Source of the DNA: Escherichia phage D6
Sequence record: NC_050154.1
Length of the DNA stretch: 64,000 bases
Direction: 5' to 3' (one strand)
Shown here: positions 227-61,586 of the stretch, piece after piece
Position numbering within the stretch: the stretch's first letter is position 1
Layout: each line of letters opens with the position of its first letter
Notes under the pieces: model-generated
What the model was told of the DNA's origin: nothing
Database searches by the model: none
The model's input: only the letters and a program-made list of their open reading frames with translations
Translations under genes and position numbers: made by a program

Positions 227-1264
227 ATGAGTAAGAAGTCGATCGAGAAAGAGTACAAACGGTTCCTGCAAACCGCTGAACGGTGGAAAGAGCTGGTGGT
301 CGCAAACTCTGTTTTCCATGATACCAGTTATGCTGGCGAGGAATTCCGCCATGTTGCATTAACGCATGACCAAAACATATTAGAAGAAGCTGAAAAATGT
401 CTTGCTGAATGGAAAGCCTTCGTTGACATGTGCCGCGATGCCGACGGCAAAGCGTCGAACATTGTTGAGTCTGTATATTCTCCGATCCCATTCATCATTG
501 AGGACACCAATCAAAGCACGCATGTCGTTGTGCAAAGCGCTACAACAACACGTACATTTACACGTGAACAATTGCTAAAAAAATACGACAAAATCATAAA
601 GAAAAGCCTGAAAAATAGGGTTTTTTCTCAAATCGTAGGTGCTCTTGAAGAAGAACAGCGCTTCTTTGAAGCTGAGCCTGAAGGCGAGATCTACCGGGCG
701 CGTAAAGAGGCATATACAGATGTTGTGCTGACAACAAACATCGAAGGCAGCAATGCCCTTTCTCGCTTTAGAGTTGGCGCACATGGCGCATTGGTTTTCG
801 CAAGACTACCGAAGACAACGATCCCCGTTGTCAATAATGTTGGTGAACGCCGGAGCATTACAATTTATTCTGGCGTCGAATCGGTACCTTGCAGCCTTCT
901 CGGCGATTTTAACTTATATCGTGTTCGTGACCTGGAAAAACACCAGCCAAGCTACGTTGCGAAGTCGTACATCTTAAGGAACATCGATATTCGCAATGAA
1001 AGCCTTAAGCAGAAATCCGCTAAGATGCTGGAGGATGCCGATCCGGCTATTCGCCATATCATTGAGCGTAAGATACGTACATCACGTGAAGCAATGGCAA
1101 GGCTGGATAAAATGGATCTGGAATTGTTAGACGTAATGATGGCCTCTGGAGACGACCTGACCGGCATTAAACTGAATGAAGCTCGTAAAAAATACGGCAA
1201 AGCAATCGAAGAACGTTACGGATACACATTCCCCCAAACGCAGTACGCCGCGAAGCTCTGGTAA
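227..1264 (+). CDS. Hypothetical 345-aa protein; candidate immunity repressor (c1-position analogue), function unproven
   Basis: ATG start; convergent with pacB as c1 is in P1; two operator-like motifs immediately upstream; no domain recognisable by eye. Confidence 0.4.
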   Translation: MSKKSIEKEYKRFLQTAERWKELVVANSVFHDTSYAGEEFRHVALTHDQNILEEAEKCLAEWKAFVDMCRDADGKASNIVESVYSPIPFIIEDTNQSTHVVVQSATTTRTFTREQLLKKYDKIIKKSLKNRVFSQIVGALEEEQRFFEAEPEGEIYRARKEAYTDVVLTTNIEGSNALSRFRVGAHGALVFARLPKTTIPVVNNVGERRSITIYSGVESVPCSLLGDFNLYRVRDLEKHQPSYVAKSYILRNIDIRNESLKQKSAKMLEDADPAIRHIIERKIRTSREAMARLDKMDLELLDVMMASGDDLTGIKLNEARKKYGKAIEERYGYTFPQTQYAAKLW

Positions 1265-4553: not shown

Positions 4554-4629
4554 TAATCCCCCGGGCAGGAAATGACCGAGGGGATGATAATGAGAATGTT
4601 AAAACTGTATAGACTGGTAAAAAGATGAT

Positions 4630-4643
4630 TGTATTAGAAAATT
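4630..4643 (-). promoter_or_regulatory. Operator-like motif (plus strand tgtattagaaaatt) upstream of the 4161..4553 gene
   Basis: Read in the gene's direction it is aattttctaataca; ~30-bp block closely resembles the reverse complement of the site at 54208. Confidence 0.45.
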
Positions 4644-4661
4644 AATATTAAATACCTAATG

Positions 4662-5054
4662 CTACCAGCGAGACAAACGAACAACATGTTTCACTTTTGC
4701 GATCCACTTTCCGCGATAACTATTGATTACGGCCTGTGCCAGCTTCAAATTGGCTTCAAAATCAGCCTTACTACCATCAGACTCCACCAGCATTCCTCCA
4801 TCTATTTCTGGTAAACATAGATAATCCTGCTCAACCTGCAGCGGCATTGATGGCTCTCTGAATGGCGTTACTTGCTCTGCTTTCCAGCGAAATCTAACCC
4901 TCATCCCCCTGGTGGTCATTACTAGATAGCCTGTTATAGTGCTTTTATGGCCCACATCAGTACGCGTGGCATTGCATGACACGATCTTACAGTTAGCGAT
5001 AGACCACTCCATATTGGTGGCCTGTTGAGTGCTTAATTTGGTAGTCCCGTACAT
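4662..5054 (-). CDS. Hypothetical protein
   Basis: 130-aa ORF; overlaps the upstream gene by start/stop coupling. Confidence 0.35.
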   Translation of the reverse strand: MYGTTKLSTQQATNMEWSIANCKIVSCNATRTDVGHKSTITGYLVMTTRGMRVRFRWKAEQVTPFREPSMPLQVEQDYLCLPEIDGGMLVESDGSKADFEANLKLAQAVINSYRGKWIAKVKHVVRLSRW

Positions 5055-5629
5055 CAGAAAGCCTCCCAGTCAGTCGCGATAATATCCACACCAGTTGCAA
5101 ACCAGTCTGTCTGCGCCTGTAAATCACCATTCATCATTACCAGGCGAGGCATCACCATCACATCGCACCCTTCCACAATATCGAATGCCTCTTCCGGCAA
5201 GAATTCGAAGAGCTTTTCTTTGCTGCCAATGCTGCCACGGAACATCGATATATAGCTCCCTTTAGGCCATGATGTCCGCCGGGCATCAAGCCCTTTCATC
5301 ATCCAGTAAAAAGCCGAGGAAAAAGGGATATTCTTTTTGCCAATGATTACATTATTCGCTTCTGTGTACTTCAGGAACTTAACTAACCTTACCATTGACT
5401 CGGATAACGCAACGTATGGCTCATGATTGATTGCTGACACGCTTACACCGTGCAATCCAACGCTTACCACTGTCATATCGCCGCTCTGTGCGGTTTCGAT
5501 ATTGACGCCTTTGCGAACTAATGAGGCGTAAAGTTCCTCTCGCTTTTGGGTCCAGCGTTCACGCTTCCCTATGAAGTCACTCAAAATGAGATCTTCTTCT
5601 GCATATGCGTTATCGTTCGCCATTAACAT
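5054..5629 (-). CDS. Hypothetical protein
   Basis: 191-aa ORF with ATG start; no recognisable motif. Confidence 0.35.
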   Translation of the reverse strand: MLMANDNAYAEEDLILSDFIGKRERWTQKREELYASLVRKGVNIETAQSGDMTVVSVGLHGVSVSAINHEPYVALSESMVRLVKFLKYTEANNVIIGKKNIPFSSAFYWMMKGLDARRTSWPKGSYISMFRGSIGSKEKLFEFLPEEAFDIVEGCDVMVMPRLVMMNGDLQAQTDWFATGVDIIATDWEAF

Positions 5630-8432: not shown

Positions 8433-8648
8433 ATGCGGCACTCTCTCCGCCCGTCACCGCTCTGTCTCGGTTGTCGCGTTTGCCACGCCAGCCATAACGA
8501 GGTTTAAAGTCTTTGCACGTTCCCATCACTCGACTGCCGTCTGTGGCTGTTCGTTGCAGCGGGGGTGCCTCCCCCTGGGGATATCCCCGGCCTTACCCCA
8601 TTCTTTCAAGACACAATGCAAGGCCACATCCGCATAGGTGCATTACCG

Positions 8649-8713
8649 CAACATTAAGGAGACTCAGGGCAAAAGGTAACCGCCACAAAAATCCCTATGC
8701 CTCCTTAATGTTG
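8649..8713. repeat. Long-stem hairpin H4 (13-bp perfect inverted repeat, 39-nt loop)
   Basis: caacattaaggag ... ctccttaatgttg; loop contains aaaaggtaacc, also present at 6013. Confidence 0.65.
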
Positions 8714-8941
8714 AAGATGTGCATTGATGATTAGATGCAGCATGTACCGTTACTCTCTGCCGGACCATCATCAATGAACACCTTAAAAAGACCTTCCGTG
8801 GCTCAACATGTATTGTCGTTTACTCCGCAAAGTGCTCTCTCTGAAACCACTTTCCGCACTAAACCTGCTGAACTTTGGCCTGCACGGTGCCAAAGCGTGC
8901 TCTTGCATTACTATACTTTTCTAACACTTTAATTTGTTAAA

Positions 8942-9015
8942 TGCTGGTGGGCGAACAATAACCAATAAGTGACTATCAAGCCCAGCAAGCGAAACGTGGG
9001 TACCGCCCACCAGCA
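8942..9015. repeat. Long-stem hairpin H5 (12-bp perfect inverted repeat, ~50-nt loop)
   Basis: tgctggtgggcg ... cgcccaccagca. Confidence 0.65.
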
Positions 9016-9074
9016 AGGAAAATTCTATGTTAAGTTACCTTCACAATCAATACATTCGAATTGTGATTTTAGAT

Positions 9075-9087
9075 TTCTAACACATTA
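9075..9087 (+). promoter_or_regulatory. Operator-like motif (tttctaacacatt) at the 3' end of the 407-aa gene, facing the ORF-free hairpin region
   Basis: Core matches the dispersed motif; preceded by gtgatttta as at the 54208 site. Confidence 0.4.
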
Positions 9088-10308: not shown

Positions 10309-10322
10309 TTTGTTAAATTAGT

Positions 10323-10335
10323 TTTCTAACATATT
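10323..10335 (+). promoter_or_regulatory. Operator-like motif (ttttctaacatat) immediately upstream of the 407-aa gene start
   Basis: Core match; lies between the upstream terminator and the start codon. Confidence 0.45.
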
Positions 10336-10375
10336 TTATTAGTTTGATGACGGTATCGGAAGATGCAATAAACAA

Positions 10376-10917: not shown

Positions 10918-11412
10918 TTAATCAAGACAAACATACTCCGTGATAGCTTTTATGGCTTCAGCGGCACTGCGCGCCTCAAAGCAGTAGTAACCGGCTTCTG
11001 TGAGGCGAGTCATCCAGACGAGTTGTTCGGGAGTCAGGCGATTTCTCCCATGTTTCATCTCAATGCGCATTCCGTGGTATCCCCCACAAGCAAGGTCTAT
11101 AGAAAGATCGGGATATCCCTTCTTTTGGCCCTCTGCCACCATTTTTATTGCCGTCCTTATGCCTCGCAGGCCACCGTTTGGAGTGGCGTGAGTATGCTCA
11201 TACACATAACGCATATTGCGATACATCCAGTCCAGGACGCGAACCTGCTCGTAATGCTCATGGTTCCTTTTGATTAGATCTGGGTTTTTCTCCAGTTCTC
11301 TAAGAGCTGCGGCATGTGGGGATGTTTCAGAATATTCACTGCGACGCCTTCTCTTTCGCGCTATTTTTCTAACACACCCATTGATAGTAAATATGCGAAA
11401 TAATAACAACAA
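10918..11412 (-). CDS. VRR-NUC domain nuclease-like protein (start codon uncertain)
   Basis: GYPDL ... LACGGYHGMRIEMK signature; an operator-like motif sits inside the annotated 5' end, so the true start is probably downstream. Confidence 0.55.
   Translation of the reverse strand: MLLLFRIFTINGCVRKIARKRRRRSEYSETSPHAAALRELEKNPDLIKRNHEHYEQVRVLDWMYRNMRYVYEHTHATPNGGLRGIRTAIKMVAEGQKKGYPDLSIDLACGGYHGMRIEMKHGRNRLTPEQLVWMTRLTEAGYYCFEARSAAEAIKAITEYVCLD
11366..11377 (+). promoter_or_regulatory. Operator-like motif (ttttctaacaca)
   Basis: Exact core match; upstream of the VRR-NUC coding core. Confidence 0.4.
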
Positions 11413-19119: not shown

Positions 19120-19270
19120 AGGATTTCCCCCTCTAAACCGTAAAAAATTCCGCTATGCGGTACGGTTGAGAGGGTATGGAGAATGTTATTTTCAGGGGGA
19201 CGATACTACCGTCAAAATCACATACTCCCCATAGTTTGCCTACTTATTAACCCATGACCGGGAGAAAAAT

Positions 19271-21015: not shown

Positions 21016-21266
21016 GGCCGAAGCCTCCCCATCACGCCCCACCATAATTCGGGCGTAACGTGGTTTTACGGACACAAAAATACCGCAATATCGGAAATGT
21101 GCGGTTGTCCGCGTAAGTATTCAGGCTGTCAAACCCGGTCGCAGAATTTGCTACGACGGCATGAATATAAGCCTGAAAACATGGAAGATCAACTAAAAAT
21201 TTCAGCAATGGATGACTTCAGTCGATGATGCAGATCATACATTCCGATTTAGAAACAGCAAATTAA

Positions 21267-21284
21267 TTTTCTAACACAAATCAT
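21267..21284 (+). promoter_or_regulatory. Operator-like motif (ttttctaacacaaatcat) upstream of the c4/icd/ant-like operon
   Basis: 18-bp identity with the site at 54208..54225. Confidence 0.5.
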
Positions 21285-21330: not shown

Positions 21331-22293
21331 TCATCCCCTAAATCCCGCAGGGATTGACCAATCCTCACGGTCAAATTCAGACCGATAGCCACGCTGTTTC
21401 ATCAGGTCAAAGGCTTCACCAATGGTTGCACACCCCTGGGAGCCAGAATAATCCATTGAGAAATCCAGGGCACTGGATTGTTTAGGCTTATTCACTGCGG
21501 TAGCGGCACTACGTATCCATGCAAATTTTTTTGCCAGCTTTTCAGCGGTACGATACAGAGCCTGCCGTTTTGCGTGCCCCTCGTCTGAACGACGCTTTGC
21601 AGCTCTCGCTTTTGCCGCCGCCAGGCAGTGGTTGGTATGTTCTTCCCTGATTACTGGTTTTTTATCCAGTACCACGTTATCCGTTTGAGAACTATCTGCT
21701 GGTGAAGCCTTTGGCTGAACCGCGCATGATCTTTCTCTTCTTTTGGCTATAGAGTGACTCTTATTTTCTATTGGCTGTTCATTTTGAACATGGGGGGACT
21801 TGTTCAATTTGAACAGGGGGTTCCCAGTTTCAAAAAAATAACGAACCTTTGAAATCAACTGCTTAACCAGTTTTGTGGCGTTGGCAAATTTGATGCCCTG
21901 CTTACCCCCTATCTCCATTGCTACATGAATGAAGTGGAGAAATTGTGTCGTAAACCGATATACGTTACACACCTGGGCATTGTTATTCGCTACCTGATGT
22001 TGCTTAACAAGCATTCCGCACTTCGTCGCTTCAGTAAATGCCCGGCGCACAGTAGAAATACTGCGCCCTGTAATCTCAGACATATCAGCATATGAGCGAC
22101 GGATCATGTATTCATCGGTAGCCCCTGCAAGGTTGGCGAACTCGGCAATAATGGCGCTATGTGAAGGGGAAAGAAGACCGCTATGACGAGCAAAAAAACT
22201 CAACTGATGACCTTTGATTTTTTTGTGGTATTCAGTGTTGTTTTTATACTCAGAAGTGTTGAAAGTTACTGAAACTGAATTTAAAATATTCAC
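21331..22293 (-). CDS. HTH-containing hypothetical protein (possible replication or regulatory protein)
   Basis: 320 aa; HTH-like MSEITGRSISTVRRAFTEATKCGML; basic C-terminal half. Confidence 0.3.
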   Translation of the reverse strand: MNILNSVSVTFNTSEYKNNTEYHKKIKGHQLSFFARHSGLLSPSHSAIIAEFANLAGATDEYMIRRSYADMSEITGRSISTVRRAFTEATKCGMLVKQHQVANNNAQVCNVYRFTTQFLHFIHVAMEIGGKQGIKFANATKLVKQLISKVRYFFETGNPLFKLNKSPHVQNEQPIENKSHSIAKRRERSCAVQPKASPADSSQTDNVVLDKKPVIREEHTNHCLAAAKARAAKRRSDEGHAKRQALYRTAEKLAKKFAWIRSAATAVNKPKQSSALDFSMDYSGSQGCATIGEAFDLMKQRGYRSEFDREDWSIPAGFRG

Positions 22294-25188: not shown

Positions 25189-25272
25189 GAATCACCGCAA
25201 ATTGTTTCCAGTTTTGCGGCAGCATAATCAGTATGTGATTTGATAGGAGAGTTTTATTGGTGCTGTTAATGA

Positions 25273-31478: not shown

Positions 31479-31556
31479 ACCCCTCCAGAAATAACATCTA
31501 ATGCGCCACTAACTTAGTCAGTTTGTTATTTCCTTACAGGACATCTTCTAGAATCT

Positions 31557-38076: not shown

Positions 38077-38170
38077 ACGAACATAGCTCCTTCATAAGCA
38101 ATGAACCAAAGGAGAGTATGCTCAGTTTGTGATTTCCGTTGTTCTTCCCCCAAATGCGGGGGAGGAATTA

Positions 38171-45452: not shown

Positions 45453-45698
45453 TTATTCCTCCGAAAAGCAGGTATCTGTTCATTTTCCAGAGGATAGGGA
45501 GTGTGTGATTTGCGATGGGGATTGAATGAAGATCTTTGCCGGTCGAGAAGCGATTATTGAGGGTGATTTTTACACCTTAAGTGACGCTACTCACATATCC
45601 ACAGAGTATTTTTATAAACCTTTTTCCATTTTTAATCCTTTTTAGATCCTTTTTAGGCGTCGCTGGAGCCAGTAGTGGCGCGGGCTGTAGAGGAGGCT

Positions 45699-54074: not shown

Positions 54075-54207
54075 GGTTAAGCCCTAAATTCGGGCGCGGC
54101 GTGAAGGTTCTTTTGACGGGCTAACAATACCTACTTTGTGATTTAGTCAATAGGTTTAGTAAAATAAAATCTATTAACACTCATGTTGTTATGTGATTTA
54201 ATTTTGG

Positions 54208-54225
54208 TTTTCTAACACAAATCAT
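54208..54225 (+). promoter_or_regulatory. Operator-like motif (ttttctaacacaaatcat) 8 bp upstream of the 54233 start
   Basis: 18-bp identity with the site at 21267; preceded by gtgattta. Confidence 0.5.
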
Positions 54226-54232
54226 TAGAGTT

Positions 54233-54625
54233 ATGGCGTATCGAATCTTTGTTTCGTATAAAAATGGCGCTAAGAGCCACTCTCTGAACACAACAAGTCG
54301 CTTTCTTGTTGAGGCGCAGTTGGCATCAATTCTTGCCGAAAGTGAGATACTCTCGCTCGCTGAACGGATCGTTATCCAGTTTTCTGGTAGAGATATACTC
54401 AATGCCCCCGCCCTCACTCCGGCCTCCGAAGTTATGGAATCAATTAAATGGCCTGTATGCGGATGTCCTGCCAGGGTTGAAGAGCCGGTAACAGCAACGC
54501 TCTACATGCCGAAAGCAGTAAGAGATTGGCTTGCTATGGTTGGTAATGGGAAAGTCAGTGCTGGACTTCGCAAGTTAATTGAAATGGCAGATATTCCTGA
54601 GTTAAAAAATGCATGGCGACAATGA
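54233..54625 (+). CDS. Hypothetical protein, possible DNA-binding C-terminus
   Basis: 130 aa; ATG start; CGCP motif; C-terminal KAVRDWLAMVGNGKVSAGLRKLIEMA. Confidence 0.35.
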   Translation: MAYRIFVSYKNGAKSHSLNTTSRFLVEAQLASILAESEILSLAERIVIQFSGRDILNAPALTPASEVMESIKWPVCGCPARVEEPVTATLYMPKAVRDWLAMVGNGKVSAGLRKLIEMADIPELKNAWRQ

Positions 54626-54641
54626 GTAAACAAGGGACAAA

Positions 54642-55100
54642 ATGAGTCACGTTAACCCATCAAAAACACAATATCGCTTAATGCTGGCGATCGCGTCAGC
54701 TATACCAACCAGCCTGAATCCCCCGGCAGGCTATCCCGCTGTTGTTGATGATTGTTTTCAGTATTACGGAGAAGACATCCTGAGCCAGTCAAAAGCGCTC
54801 AAGCAGTTATGTAAGGCAGGTATTCTTCACTGTATCGGAGATCCGGACGATTTTGTTGTTATGCTGGCGGATCGTGACTCTTTTCTACTGTCCTGGAAAG
54901 CTGGTGCGCGCGAAGCACGTTTGGGGAATGGTATTGGTTACATAGACTATAGCGATTGTCCGCTGGCATTTGCTGGTGGATATATGCATTGGCATGAGCG
55001 AAATAGGGGCCGTCAGCGTCAGTATCGTTTGAGTGACTTTAACGTCTGTCACGGTTTCGAAGAAGCTGACAGCCAGGACATCTGGCTTCAGGAGCCTTGA
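54642..55100 (+). CDS. Hypothetical protein
   Basis: 152-aa ORF 17 bp downstream of the previous gene. Confidence 0.35.
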   Translation: MSHVNPSKTQYRLMLAIASAIPTSLNPPAGYPAVVDDCFQYYGEDILSQSKALKQLCKAGILHCIGDPDDFVVMLADRDSFLLSWKAGAREARLGNGIGYIDYSDCPLAFAGGYMHWHERNRGRQRQYRLSDFNVCHGFEEADSQDIWLQEP

Positions 55101-55420
55101 TCCCCCTTCCCTTCCCAAATCTCCCTGTTTCTTTGGTTATTCAGTGCGTTTCGTTGGTTGCATTCGTCGATCGTGCTGAATAACTGTTCAGCGTATGTCG
55201 GATACTTGTTTAACAGCACTGGCGTGTCTTCTGGCACTAAACAAGGGGAGTAATCAATCAGATTTGCCTGCGGCTTGCTGGTGGCTTCTACGGTAATTTT
55301 CACTGGCACGCTGGTTGATGGCTTTTGCCCGTTCCCGCTGCATCCTGATAACGTCATCAGGCACACGCACATCGTTAATCCCAGCACGGCGTAACGCATT
55401 TTCAAGGCGAGTGATTTCAT
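55088..55420 (-). CDS. Outer-membrane spanin lipoprotein (Rz1-like), overlapping the i-spanin gene out of frame
   Basis: Lipobox LSGC after a hydrophobic signal; Pro-rich mature region with Cys; RBS GAGAGGAAAG before ATG at 55420. Confidence 0.55.
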   Translation of the reverse strand: MKSLALKMRYAVLGLTMCVCLMTLSGCSGNGQKPSTSVPVKITVEATSKPQANLIDYSPCLVPEDTPVLLNKYPTYAEQLFSTIDECNQRNALNNQRNREIWEGKGDQGS

Positions 55421-55727
55421 TCTGGCTTTCCTCTCGTTGTTTGATTAGGTTGGCATTCAGTTCTGCTGTTTTGCGCTGGTACTCCTTTTCCAGTGCTTTA
55501 ATTCTTTCGTTTTCGGTCAGCATGGCTGAGCGAGCGTTCTCACTTAACTGTAATGCGGTAGAAAGCGTGTTGTTCGTGCTTTCCAGTTGTGATTTTGAGT
55601 CTTCAAGCGATCGGACATACCTGATGTGTTCGATAACTGCCGTCGTTGTTCGGTAAATTCCAGAAATGGCTAAAAGCGCAATTACAATCAAAATTATCTT
55701 TTTCAAAACCATCCTCTTCAGGTTCAT
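55254..55727 (-). CDS. Inner-membrane spanin (Rz-like)
   Basis: 157 aa; N-terminal TM helix followed by coiled-coil periplasmic domain; contains the Rz1-like frame. Confidence 0.55.
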   Translation of the reverse strand: MNLKRMVLKKIILIVIALLAISGIYRTTTAVIEHIRYVRSLEDSKSQLESTNNTLSTALQLSENARSAMLTENERIKALEKEYQRKTAELNANLIKQREESQNEITRLENALRRAGINDVRVPDDVIRMQRERAKAINQRASENYRRSHQQAAGKSD

Positions 55728-56873: not shown

Positions 56874-56957
56874 TCTTCACCTCCTGGTTATCCTTCTATT
56901 GTCATCACTTTGTTATTTCGTCATTCAAACGGAGAGTTAAATTTCGGAATATTTTTG

Positions 56958-59924: not shown

Positions 59925-61586
59925 ATGAGTGAGGCAGAAGCCCGCCCGACTAACTTTATTCGTCAGATCATCGATGAAGATCTGGCCAGTGGTAAGCACA
60001 CCACAGTACATACCCGTTTCCCGCCGGAACCGAATGGCTATCTGCATATTGGTCATGCGAAATCTATCTGCCTGAACTTCGGGATCGCCCAGGACTATAA
60101 AGGCCAGTGCAACCTGCGTTTCGACGACACTAACCCGGTAAAAGAAGATATCGAGTACGTCGAGTCGATTAAAAACGACGTTGAATGGTTAGGTTTTCAC
60201 TGGTCTGGCAACATCCGTTACTCCTCCGATTATTTTGACAAACTCCATGCCTATGCTGTTGAACTGATCAACAAAGGCCTGGCGTATGTTGACGAACTGA
60301 CGCCGGAACAGATCCGCGAATACCGCGGCACCCTGACGCAGCCGGGTAAAAATAGCCCGTACCGCGATCGCAGCGTTGAAGAGAACCTGGCGCTGTTCGA
60401 AAAAATGCGTGCCGGTGGTTTTGAAGAAGGTAAAGCCTGCCTGCGTGCGAAAATCGATATGGCTTCGCCGTTTATCGTGATGCGCGACCCGGTGCTGTAC
60501 CGCATTAAGTTTGCTGAACACCACCAGACTGGCAACAAGTGGTGCATCTACCCGATGTACGACTTCACCCACTGCATCAGCGATGCGCTGGAAGGTATTA
60601 CGCACTCTCTGTGTACGCTTGAGTTCCAGGACAACCGTCGTCTGTATGACTGGGTACTGGACAACATCACCATTCCTGTTCACCCGCGCCAGTACGAATT
60701 CTCGCGCCTGAATCTGGAATACACTGTGATGTCCAAGCGTAAGCTGAACCTGCTGGTGACCGACAAGCACGTTGAAGGCTGGGATGACCCGCGTATGCCG
60801 ACCATTTCCGGTCTGCGTCGTCGTGGTTACACTGCTGCTTCTATTCGTGAGTTCTGCAAACGCATCGGCGTGACCAAGCAGGACAACACCATTGAGATGG
60901 CGTCGTTGGAATCCTGCATCCGTGAAGATCTCAACGAAAATGCGCCGCGCGCAATGGCGGTTATCGATCCGGTGAAACTGGTTATCGAAAACTATCAGGG
61001 CGAAGGCGAAATGGTCACCATGCCGAACCATCCGAACAAACCGGAAATGGGGAGCCGTCAGGTGCCGTTTAGCGGTGAGATTTGGATTGATCGCGCCGAT
61101 TTCCGCGAAGAAGCTAACAAGCAGTACAAACGTCTGGTGCTGGGTAAAGAAGTGCGTCTGCGTAATGCTTATGTGATTAAGGCAGAACGCGTCGAGAAAG
61201 ATGCCGAAGGTAATATCACCACCATCTTCTGTACTTATGACGCCGATACCTTAAGCAAAGATCCGGCAGATGGTCGTAAAGTCAAAGGTGTTATTCACTG
61301 GGTGAGCGCGGCACATGCGCAGCCGGTTGAAATCCGTTTGTATGACCGTCTGTTCAGCGTGCCGAACCCAGGTGCTGCGGATGATTTCCTGTCGGTGATT
61401 AACCCGGAATCGCTGGTGATCAAACAGGGCTTTGCTGAACCGTCGCTGAAAGATGCGGTTGCGGGTAAAGCATTCCAGTTTGAGCGTGAAGGTTACTTCT
61501 GCCTCGACAGCCGCCATTCTACGGCGGAAAAACCGGTATTTAACCGCACCGTTGGGCTGCGTGATACCTGGGCGAAGTTAGGTTAA
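59925..61586 (+). CDS. glnS: Glutaminyl-tRNA synthetase
   Basis: 553 aa; HIGH motif (HIGH at residues ~40-43), VMSKR motif; near-identical along its length to E. coli GlnS as I recall it. Confidence 0.95.

What the first reader, a model, noticed from the sequence alone, without database searches (positions are those of the whole stretch)
54208..55100. Operator-flanked two-gene cassette of unknown function between the capsid operon start and the spanins
The 18-bp operator-like site, identical to the one controlling the c4-like operon, sits 8 bp before a 130-aa gene with a possible DNA-binding C-terminus and a CGCP motif, followed by a 152-aa gene. Their placement and control fit early, repressor-regulated accessory functions such as anti-defence, superinfection exclusion or a regulator. 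I cannot match either to a P1 protein from sequence.
Basis: partly seen in the sequence, partly recalled or inferred. Interest (0 to 1): 0.45.

Follow-up and report, generated by a model that had tools for sequence, protein, structure and literature searches.

The report
Repressor-controlled early gene pair in phage D6
Two small genes of unknown function in the plasmid-prophage D6 sit behind a genuine binding site for the phage's main repressor, so they are most likely silent in the dormant phage and switched on early in infection; this is an ordinary kind of phage operon, although neither protein has a known relative of known function.

Summary
The 18-bp sequence TTTTCTAACACAAATCAT occurs exactly twice, at 54208-54225 and 21267-21284. 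The first copy ends 7 nt before a 130-aa gene, which is followed by a 152-aa gene.

The window is phage D6 or a near-identical D6-like phage-plasmid. The 18-mer is one of 8 copies in the window of a 17-bp motif, AGTTTTCTAACACAAAT, and all 8 are intergenic. The motif matches the P1 C1 operator at 10 of 17 positions. It lies in front of D6's c1, lpa and c4 genes and a tRNA/terB block. In a 99.9% identical plasmid it also lies in front of rdgC and ref. That reproduces most of P1's C1 regulon.

The capsid gene has its own late promoter between the operator and its start codon. The two strongest sigma-70-like promoters in the spacer point rightward. The operator therefore belongs to the two-gene unit.

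Both genes are under purifying selection and keep this position in Salmonella, Raoultella and metagenomic relatives. ORF1 evolves fast, and its CGCP motif is not conserved. Its ribbon-helix-helix-like C-terminus is unproven. ORF2 belongs to an unannotated family of at least 370 clusters. Its members lie beside Ref nuclease and other early DNA-metabolism genes in other phages, and alone on Alteromonadales chromosomes.

Early, C1-repressed expression is well supported. The biochemical function is not established. Exclusion and toxin-antitoxin readings are disfavoured.

The parts
54206..54225 (+). C1-type operator. The 17-mer is GGTTTTCTAACACAAAT at 54206-54222. The 18-bp stretch identical to the c4 site is 54208-54225.
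   Evidence: Exact twin at 21267-21284. PWM score 23.0, one of 8 intergenic sites. The core is conserved in Salmonella and Raoultella relatives.
54174..54202 (+). Best candidate sigma-70 promoter for ORF1-ORF2. It reads TTAACA-17 nt-TTTAAT with TG at 54194-54195, which predicts a start near 54209, inside the operator. This is inferred.
   Evidence: Highest-scoring promoter-like site in the spacer, in the top 0.001% of window positions with a rough PWM. The TGTG-N-TTTAAT block is conserved in relatives.
54136..54165 (+). Second candidate rightward promoter, TTGTGA-18 nt-TAAAAT. The operator would then lie at about +35 to +52. This is inferred.
54233..54625 (+). ORF1, 130 aa (phrog_7830). It has an N-terminal alpha/beta domain and three C-terminal helices with a ribbon-helix-helix-like sequence pattern.
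54642..55100 (+). ORF2, 152 aa (phrog_8101). It is highly conserved and has its own Shine-Dalgarno sequence (AAGGGA) 16 nt after the ORF1 stop codon.
54124..54144 (-). Late promoter of the capsid gene: AAATCACAAAGT at 54144-54133, then 3 nt, then the -10 TATTGT at 54129-54124.
   Evidence: The same motif and spacing occur upstream of six other late units. The layout parallels P1 LP23, with a -22 region plus a -10.
21265..21284 (+). Twin operator upstream of the minus-strand c4-icd-ant (immI-like) operon.
227..1264 (+). c1 repressor gene of D6, the presumed protein that binds the operators.
   Evidence: 100% identical to AAV84948 'c1 phage repressor protein' of phage D6.
194..210 (-). Operator copy 17 nt upstream of the c1 ATG.
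4627..4643 (-). Operator copy upstream of lpa, the late-promoter activator gene at 4553-4161. The first base of the TTTTC core (4641) is 88 nt from the lpa ATG, against 87 nt from the start of Olpa to the ATG in P1.
8915..8931 (+). Operator copy at the head of the minus-strand block of non-coding DNA, tRNAs and terB. This position matches P1 Oban/Op72.
9071..9087 (+). Second operator copy of the same region.
10320..10336 (+). Operator copy next to the start of the pmgS-like gene.
11363..11379 (+). Operator copy upstream of the VRR-NUC gene.

Best explanation
ORF1 and ORF2 form a rightward early operon of phage D6 that is repressed by the phage's C1 repressor.

Mechanism:
- In the plasmid prophage, C1 (gene at 227-1264) binds the 17-bp operator at 54206-54222. 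The operator lies at or just downstream of the transcription start of a strong sigma-70 promoter and directly in front of the ORF1 ribosome-binding site. Binding blocks transcription.
- C1 is absent on infection and is inactivated by the c4/ant immunity circuit on induction. The operon is then transcribed together with the rest of the C1 regulon (lpa, ant, ref, rdgC and others).
- The divergent capsid gene is driven separately by its own Lpa-type late promoter.

The two proteins:
- ORF1 is a fast-evolving two-domain protein. Its C-terminus may be a ribbon-helix-helix DNA-binding module.
- ORF2 is a strongly constrained protein of a wider unannotated family. Other phages place it in early recombination/replication operons, next to Ref nuclease, a PadR-like regulator, or RdgC and DnaC-like genes.

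The most likely role is an early accessory function in DNA transactions or host takeover, with ORF1 as the specificity or regulatory partner.

What is shown and what is inferred:
- Shown: the site family, its genomic distribution, the gene reality and the gene contexts.
- Inferred: C1 binding, the exact promoter, early timing and the function.
For: - The 18-mer is identical to the site at the c4 operon.
- The 10-mer core occurs exactly 6 times, and two further intergenic copies carry one mismatch. All 8 PWM hits of 19.9 or more are intergenic.
- The motif matches the P1 C1 operator at 10 of 17 positions.
- Copies sit before c1, lpa (same operator-to-ATG distance as P1 Olpa) and c4, and in an Oban-like position. 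In the 99.9% identical plasmid pSL26_91 they also sit before rdgC, ref and a DUF968 gene.
- At rdgC the operator ends 8 nt before the ATG, the same tight geometry as at ORF1.
- c1 is 100% identical to D6 c1.
- The capsid gene has its own late promoter, with a motif shared by 7 late units.
- The best promoter-like sites in the spacer are rightward and place the operator at positions +1 to +52.
- The operator core is conserved in relatives whose ORF1 is only 58-64% identical.
- dN/dS is 0.17 for ORF1 and 0.02 for ORF2.
- ORF2 homologues lie in early or Ref-linked contexts.
Against: - No binding or expression data exist for D6.
- The operator has the opposite orientation at c4, c1, pmgS and VRR-NUC relative to the gene it precedes. 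Orientation alone would therefore point to the leftward capsid gene.
- The -10 of the best promoter (TTTAAT) lacks the conserved A at position 2.
- Neither protein matches any family of known function in Pfam, NCBIfam, PADLOC or the PDB.
- The ribbon-helix-helix assignment is not significant (3.4% probability).
- The ORF2 structure model is unusable, with pLDDT 46.
- ORF2 homologues also occur as single chromosomal genes in Alteromonadales, so the family is not phage-specific.
Confidence: 0.6

Rival explanations
1. The operator acts on leftward transcription instead of, or as well as, rightward transcription. Read on the minus strand the site is TG-T-TAGAAA, an extended -10-like element. It has this same orientation at c4, c1, pmgS and VRR-NUC. 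C1 might therefore gate an early leftward promoter that reads into the capsid operon, or simply insulate that operon.
For: At five other window sites the regulated gene lies on the opposite strand at the 5' side of the motif. The minus-strand reading contains TGnTAGAAA.
Against: The capsid gene has a complete late promoter 60-80 nt closer to its start. No minus-strand sigma-70 candidate that uses the operator scores well, and the best leftward hit is the late-promoter region itself. lpa and rdgC show that the parallel orientation is also used. P1 has no C1 operator at gene 23.
Confidence: 0.12
2. The pair is a dedicated anti-defence module. ORF1, or the ORF1-ORF2 complex, would neutralise a host immunity system immediately after infection.
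For: - Early, repressor-controlled expression is predicted (see best explanation).
- ORF1 is a local divergence hot spot, at about 60% nucleotide identity against 80-90% in the flanks.
- In the Raoultella relative the cassette is extended by a gene with a Tad2-like domain, scoring 23.9 bits against a cut-off of 25.
Against: All fold matches are below significance. There are no hits to known anti-defence families. ORF2 is extremely conserved and also exists as a lone chromosomal gene in marine bacteria, which is unlike a typical arms-race protein.
Confidence: 0.2
3. The pair is a toxin-antitoxin or plasmid-addiction module expressed in the lysogen, or a lysogen-expressed exclusion module. ORF1 would be a DNA-binding antitoxin and ORF2 the toxin.
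Against: - A C1 operator of full strength at the transcript start predicts silence in the prophage.
- ORF2 homologues occur without any ORF1-like partner in Vibrio phages, in other phage-plasmids and on chromosomes.
- There is no match to any toxin or PADLOC family.
- The element already carries the RelE/HigA and Phd/Doc toxin-antitoxin modules.
Confidence: 0.06
4. The repeat is a chance or recombination-derived duplicate with no regulatory role, and the two ORFs are constitutive or late genes.
For: Only two exact 18-mers exist. No experimental data are available.
Against: The expectation is 0.06 for two hits. Eight of eight family members are intergenic and lie at homologues of known P1 C1-regulated genes. 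The core is conserved across diverged relatives while the flanking spacer diverges.
Confidence: 0.02

Closest known systems
C1-controlled operators and early operons of phage P1 (Oc4/Op51, Olpa/Op94, Odmt/Op68, Oban/Op72)
   Same: The operator is a 17-bp asymmetric sequence sharing 10 of 17 positions with ATTGCTCTAATAAATTT. There are many copies per genome, all intergenic, in front of homologous genes (c1, lpa, c4, rdgC/hrdC, ref, tRNA-terB block). The operator-to-ATG distance at lpa is the same as in P1.
   Different: The sequence specificity differs: the core is TTTTCTAACAC in D6 and TGCTCTAATAA in P1. The c4 operator is inverted relative to P1. The ORF1-ORF2 unit has no counterpart in P1, where the same genomic interval holds parS-parBA-repA-oriR and upfA.
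PHROG families phrog_7830 (ORF1) and phrog_8101 (ORF2), both 'unknown function'
   Same: Both ORFs give full-length matches, at E 9e-79 and 8e-98. The Vibrio phage-plasmid homologue of ORF2 also falls in phrog_8101.
   Different: These families carry no function, so membership names the proteins but explains nothing.
Ref (RecA-dependent nuclease) early operons of P1-like phage-plasmids
   Same: ORF2 homologues lie in the same gene string as ref in a Vibrio phage-plasmid and in a phage-plasmid that encodes a P7-type C1. In P1, ref is C1-controlled, as I recall from the P1 literature.
   Different: In D6 itself, ref is elsewhere (pSL26_91 77853-78431), and ORF2 is paired with ORF1 next to the capsid gene.
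Ribbon-helix-helix regulators (Arc/MetJ/CopG) and two-domain antitoxins with a C-terminal ribbon-helix-helix domain, such as some HicB proteins
   Same: ORF1 residues 87-118 read as a hydrophobic strand (TATLYMP), then a helix, then a G-x-G-K-x-S turn, then a helix. These follow a small alpha/beta domain.
   Different: There is no significant sequence or fold match. The partner gene is not a HicA-like or other known toxin.

Membership tests
P1-type C1 repressor operator | Asymmetric sequence of about 17 bp that matches a consensus repeated across the genome | tested here: met
   There are 8 sites in the window with PWM scores of 19.9 to 24.4, against 1.7 weak hits per shuffle at the much lower threshold of 12. 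There are 8 more (scores 13.0-23.6) in the rest of the D6-like plasmid. The consensus shares 10 of 17 positions with the P1 consensus.
P1-type C1 repressor operator | Located in promoter regions of the C1 regulon (c1, lpa, c4/ant, ban region, hrdC/dmt, ref) | tested here: met
   Sites lie upstream of c1, lpa, c4, the tRNA-terB block, rdgC and ref homologues. All are intergenic.
P1-type C1 repressor operator | A cognate C1 repressor is encoded by the same element | tested here: met
   The ORF at 227-1264 is 100% identical to the annotated c1 of phage D6. It gives no Pfam hit.
P1-type C1 repressor operator | Physical binding by C1 and repression of the adjacent promoter | not testable with these tools
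   This needs EMSA or footprinting and reporter assays.
Ribbon-helix-helix DNA-binding domain (ORF1 C-terminus) | Significant sequence or profile match to ribbon-helix-helix families | tested here: not met
   Pfam gives no ribbon-helix-helix family even at E<=10 on the C-terminal segment. The PDB profile search finds none. hhalign against a recalled set of ribbon-helix-helix sequences aligns in the expected register, but at only 3.4% probability.
Ribbon-helix-helix DNA-binding domain (ORF1 C-terminus) | Strand-helix-turn-helix secondary structure that forms a dimeric beta-ribbon | tested here: inconclusive
   The AF2 monomer shows helices at 94-103 and 108-118 preceded by an extended, low-confidence segment. 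No dimer could be modelled.
Type II toxin-antitoxin module | The second gene belongs to a toxin family and is always paired with an antitoxin | tested here: not met
   There is no toxin family hit. ORF2 homologues stand alone on chromosomes and in other phages.
P1 structural or lysis proteins | Detectable homology to a P1 virion or lysis protein | tested here: not met
   tblastn against 50,697 phage records, including P1, gave no hit for ORF1. For ORF2 it found only Vibrio phage douglas 12A4.
Known defence or anti-defence families (PADLOC, Tad2 and others) | A profile match for either protein | tested here: not met
   PADLOC and Pfam give nothing for ORF1 or ORF2. Only a neighbouring gene in the Raoultella relative is Tad2-like, and it scores just under the cut-off.

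The most novel reading that the evidence does not exclude
ORF2 may found an uncharacterised protein family, with ORF1 as its fast-evolving partner in D6.
- The family has at least 370 clusters, in D6-like elements, Vibrio phages and phage-plasmids, and Alteromonadales chromosomes.
- Its members share an invariant Y..G..Y-x-D-Y..F-x-x-G-x-x-H..C-H-G signature, which could mark a new enzyme or nucleic-acid-binding fold.
- Phages would deploy it early, often beside Ref nuclease.
- ORF1, possibly DNA-binding, would make the pair a new early module that controls recombination or counteracts a host defence.
Probability: 0.2. Interest if true: 0.5.

Novelty: new member of a known kind. Interest (0 to 1): 0.3.

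Why it matters
This adds a D6-specific unit to the C1 regulon. It also yields, from sequence alone, the D6 operator consensus and the D6 late-promoter motif. Both are useful for annotating D6-like phage-plasmids, which occur in Salmonella, E. coli and Shigella. The two proteins are candidates for early functions in phage-plasmids. ORF2 in particular marks a conserved family without annotation that recurs in early recombination operons. The regulatory logic itself is standard for P1-like phages.

Tried and rejected
- **Family searches for both proteins.** Pfam, NCBIfam and PADLOC gave nothing.
- **Nucleotide search of the region against phage records.** No match. The complete D6 genome appears to be absent from that collection.
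- **PDB sequence and profile searches.** Nothing meaningful.
- **ORF2 structure model.** pLDDT 46, so it was not searched.
- **ORF2 against ribosome modulation factor (Rmf/CrpP-like motif).** This was my own idea and is rejected, at 2% probability.
- **ORF1 against a ribbon-helix-helix set.** 3.4% probability, inconclusive.
- **ORF1 against the 153-aa gene preceding ORF2 in locus L019.** No relation.
- **P1-type or D6-type operator in L019.** None found, and the repeat search there was uninformative.
- **Capsid gene as the target of the operator.** Set aside after its own late promoter was found.
- **Literature.** The D6 genome paper, the Dre/rox paper and the P1 genome paper are not held. Phage-plasmid surveys do not mention these genes.

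Full report
**What the window is.** The region 54075-55100 is 99.9% identical to ~90-kb non-mobilisable plasmids of Salmonella and E. coli, and 121 such records match it. The 345-aa ORF at 227-1264 is 100% identical to the annotated c1 repressor of phage D6 in AY753669. In that record it is flanked by pacB and by the Dre recombinase with its rox site. The window is therefore phage D6 or a near-identical D6-like phage-plasmid, a P1 relative with different immunity, replication and partition genes (RepB and ParM).

**The observation.**
- The 18-mer TTTTCTAACACAAATCAT occurs exactly at 54208-54225 and 21267-21284. There is nothing else within 3 mismatches, against 0.06 expected.
- The first copy ends 7 nt before the ATG of a 130-aa ORF (54233-54625).
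- After a 16-nt gap containing AAGGGA, a 152-aa ORF follows (54642-55100).
- To the left, on the other strand, is the gp23-like capsid gene (54074->52377; phrog_1014).
- To the right, also on the other strand, are an i-spanin/o-spanin pair (55088-55727), a UpfB-like gene and a PAAR gene.
- Rfam finds the C4 antisense RNA (21049-20964) and its a1b1 targets (21170-21118) on the minus strand. They are followed by icd and an Ant/Rha antirepressor. The twin site therefore sits upstream of a minus-strand immI-like operon.

**The site is one member of a C1-type operator family.**
- The 10-mer core TTTTCTAACA occurs exactly six times in the window. Two further intergenic copies carry one mismatch.
- A 17-bp weight matrix with consensus AGTTTTCTAACACAAAT recovers exactly these eight sites at scores of 19.9-24.4. 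The next hit scores 13.9. All eight are intergenic.
- In the window the sites lie:
  - 17 nt upstream of c1 (194-210);
  - upstream of lpa (4627-4643; Pfam BPP1_LPA, E 5e-57);
  - at the head of a minus-strand block of non-coding DNA, tRNAs and terB (8915 and 9071), which matches the position of P1's Oban;
  - next to a pmgS-like gene (10320);
  - next to a VRR-NUC gene (11363);
  - upstream of c4 (21265);
  - upstream of ORF1 (54206).
- In the remainder of the near-identical plasmid pSL26_91 there are further sites. They include an inverted pair directly before rdgC (the hrdC homologue), one between ref and its divergent neighbour, and a pair before a DUF968 gene.
- The richly annotated P1 record lists C1 operators at c4, kilA/repL, rlf, dmt/hrdC, ban and lpa. 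Their sequences give ATTGCTCTAATAAATTT. The D6 consensus matches this at 10 of 17 positions.
- At lpa the distance from operator start to ATG is 88 nt in D6 and 87 nt in P1.
- This reproduces most of the P1 C1 regulon with a changed specificity, as expected for a heteroimmune relative.
- I conclude that the 54208 site is a genuine C1-type operator. Actual binding remains inferred.

**Which gene it controls.** Orientation alone is ambiguous. At c1, c4, pmgS and VRR-NUC the regulated gene is antiparallel to the motif. At lpa, rdgC and the gene divergent from ref it is parallel. Four observations assign the 54208 site to the rightward ORF1-ORF2 unit.
1. The capsid gene has its own late promoter between the operator and its start. 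This is AAATCACAAAGT (54144-54133), then 3 nt, then TATTGT. The same 12-mer with the same spacing to a TAnnnT -10 is found upstream of the lysozyme gene (19215), the portal gene (25230), three tail or baseplate units (31520, 38124, 45500) and the PAAR-spanin operon (56907). P1 annotates its late promoters in the same way, as a '-22 region' plus a -10, including LP23 before gene 23.
2. With a rough sigma-70 matrix, the two best promoter-like sites in the spacer are rightward. One is TTAACA-17-TTTAAT with an upstream TG (54174-54202), in the top 0.001% of window positions. The other is TTGTGA-18-TAAAAT (54136-54165). They place the operator at about +1 to +17 or at about +35 to +52. No leftward candidate uses the operator.
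3. At rdgC, a gene expected to be C1-controlled, the operator also ends 8 nt before the ATG.
4. The operator core and the TGTG-N-TTTAAT block are conserved in Salmonella and Raoultella relatives, while the rest of the spacer diverges.

**The two genes are real and travel together in D6-like elements.** The order capsid(-)/ORF1(+)/ORF2(+)/spanins(-) is kept in four kinds of element:
- E. coli and Salmonella plasmids;
- a diverged Salmonella lineage with ORF1 64% identical;
- Raoultella plasmids with ORF1 58% identical;
- a metagenomic contig with ORF1 49% identical.

dN/dS against the Salmonella lineage is 0.17 for ORF1 and 0.02 for ORF2. ORF1 is a local divergence hot spot, at about 60% nucleotide identity against 80-90% in the flanks. 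In P1 the corresponding interval, between gene 23 and upfA/mlp/ppfA/upfB/upfC, holds parS-parBA-repA-oriR. Neither ORF has a P1 homologue.

**ORF1.** The family is tiny, with 12 clusters, all from Enterobacteriaceae. The CGCP motif is not conserved. The AF2 model (pLDDT 79) shows an N-terminal alpha/beta domain (residues 1-70), a disordered linker and three C-terminal helices. Residues 87-118 (TATLYMPKAVRDWL..GNGKVSAGLRKLIE) have the look of a ribbon-helix-helix motif. However, Pfam, PDB and profile-profile tests do not support it significantly. Fold searches give only sub-threshold similarity to small phage inhibitors and antitoxins.

**ORF2.**
- A full HMMER scan of 1.8 billion representatives finds 23 relatives.
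- A profile search of the larger collection finds 370 clusters, all 130-156 aa and all without annotation.
- Invariant residues include Y41, F81, G88, G95, Y100, F110, G113, H116 and C136-H137-G138.
- The contexts of its homologues are:
  - Vibrio phage douglas 12A4, in an early block with DnaC-like, RdgC-like and oligoribonuclease genes;
  - Vibrio phage-plasmids, as the first gene of a string ORF2-like -> PadR-like regulator -> Ref nuclease -> ... -> DUF4406;
  - a phage-plasmid encoding a P7-type C1, downstream of ref;
  - Alteromonadales chromosomes, as a lone gene among housekeeping genes.
- ORF2 is thus not dependent on ORF1 and is not a toxin. It is repeatedly an early gene linked to recombination or replication functions.
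- In the Raoultella relative, two more genes are appended to the cassette. One is Tad2-like, scoring just below Pfam's cut-off.

**Verdict.** The regulatory reading is well supported by comparative evidence. It remains to be shown experimentally. The function is unknown. Early expression favours an accessory role in DNA transactions, host takeover or anti-defence. It disfavours superinfection exclusion or addiction, which need expression in the lysogen. This is a new, D6-specific member of a well-known kind of unit, so interest is modest.

Noticed in passing
window 19215-19226(+), 25230-25241(-), 31520-31531(-), 38124-38135(-), 45500-45511(-), 54133-54144(-), 56907-56918(-): A D6 late-promoter motif, AAATCACAnAsT followed after about 3 nt by a TAnnnT -10, precedes the lysozyme, portal, tail/baseplate, capsid and PAAR-spanin units. 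It occupies the same -22 position as the P1 Lpa box but has a different sequence (P1: AAGTGACTT / AAATGACTA).
   Followed up: partly
window 54189-54200 (-): A second copy of the first 10 bases of the late motif (AAATCACATAAC), without a proper -10, overlaps the candidate ORF1 promoter. If Lpa binds there it could shut the early promoter off late in infection. GTGATTTA is thus repeated 54 bp apart in the spacer.
   Followed up: no
window 55088-55100: The 3' end of ORF2 overlaps the 3' end of the convergent o-spanin ORF by 13 nt, and no terminator-like hairpin follows ORF2. Early rightward transcripts would therefore run antisense into the spanin genes.
   Followed up: no
window 21265-21284 versus P1 48140-48156 (L011 8141-8157): The D6 c4 operator is inverted relative to P1's Oc4 and lies about 36 nt further from the conserved P51b-like promoter (TTGATC-17-TATATT, 21192-21164). 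From that promoter onward the D6 and P1 sequences are nearly identical, through the C4 RNA.
   Followed up: partly
window 21331-22293 (-): A 320-aa gene with weak similarity to replication initiators lies upstream of c4 rather than downstream of ant as repL does in P1. The PWM scan found no operator copy before it.
   Followed up: no
window 8530-9084: About 550 bp with no convincing ORF and no Rfam hit is bracketed by two operator copies (8915, 9071). It lies upstream of minus-strand tRNA genes (7850-7700, 6159-6087) and terB. The position matches P1's Oban / dicF-like region / tRNA / tciA operon.
   Followed up: partly
window 5054-5629 (-) and L008 7536-7826: D6 encodes a 191-aa protein with a Tad2-like (Thoeris anti-defence 2) domain (E 1e-9). 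It lies two genes upstream of lpa. A second Tad2-like gene is appended to the ORF1-ORF2 cassette in Raoultella relatives.
   Followed up: no
window 59925-61586 (+): The element carries a full-length glutaminyl-tRNA synthetase gene (glnS, 553 aa) in addition to three tRNA genes. This is unusual cargo for a P1-like phage.
   Followed up: no
L003 1973-2012 (pSL26_91 63972-64011, just beyond the window end): An inverted pair of operators 6 bp apart lies directly in front of rdgC. It resembles a bivalent operator of the P1 Op72ab type.
   Followed up: partly
window 54233-54625 versus L004/L008: ORF1 is much more diverged than every neighbouring gene, at 60% nucleotide identity against 80-93%. This suggests allele replacement or diversifying pressure, while ORF2 immediately downstream is 87-88% identical.
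   Followed up: partly
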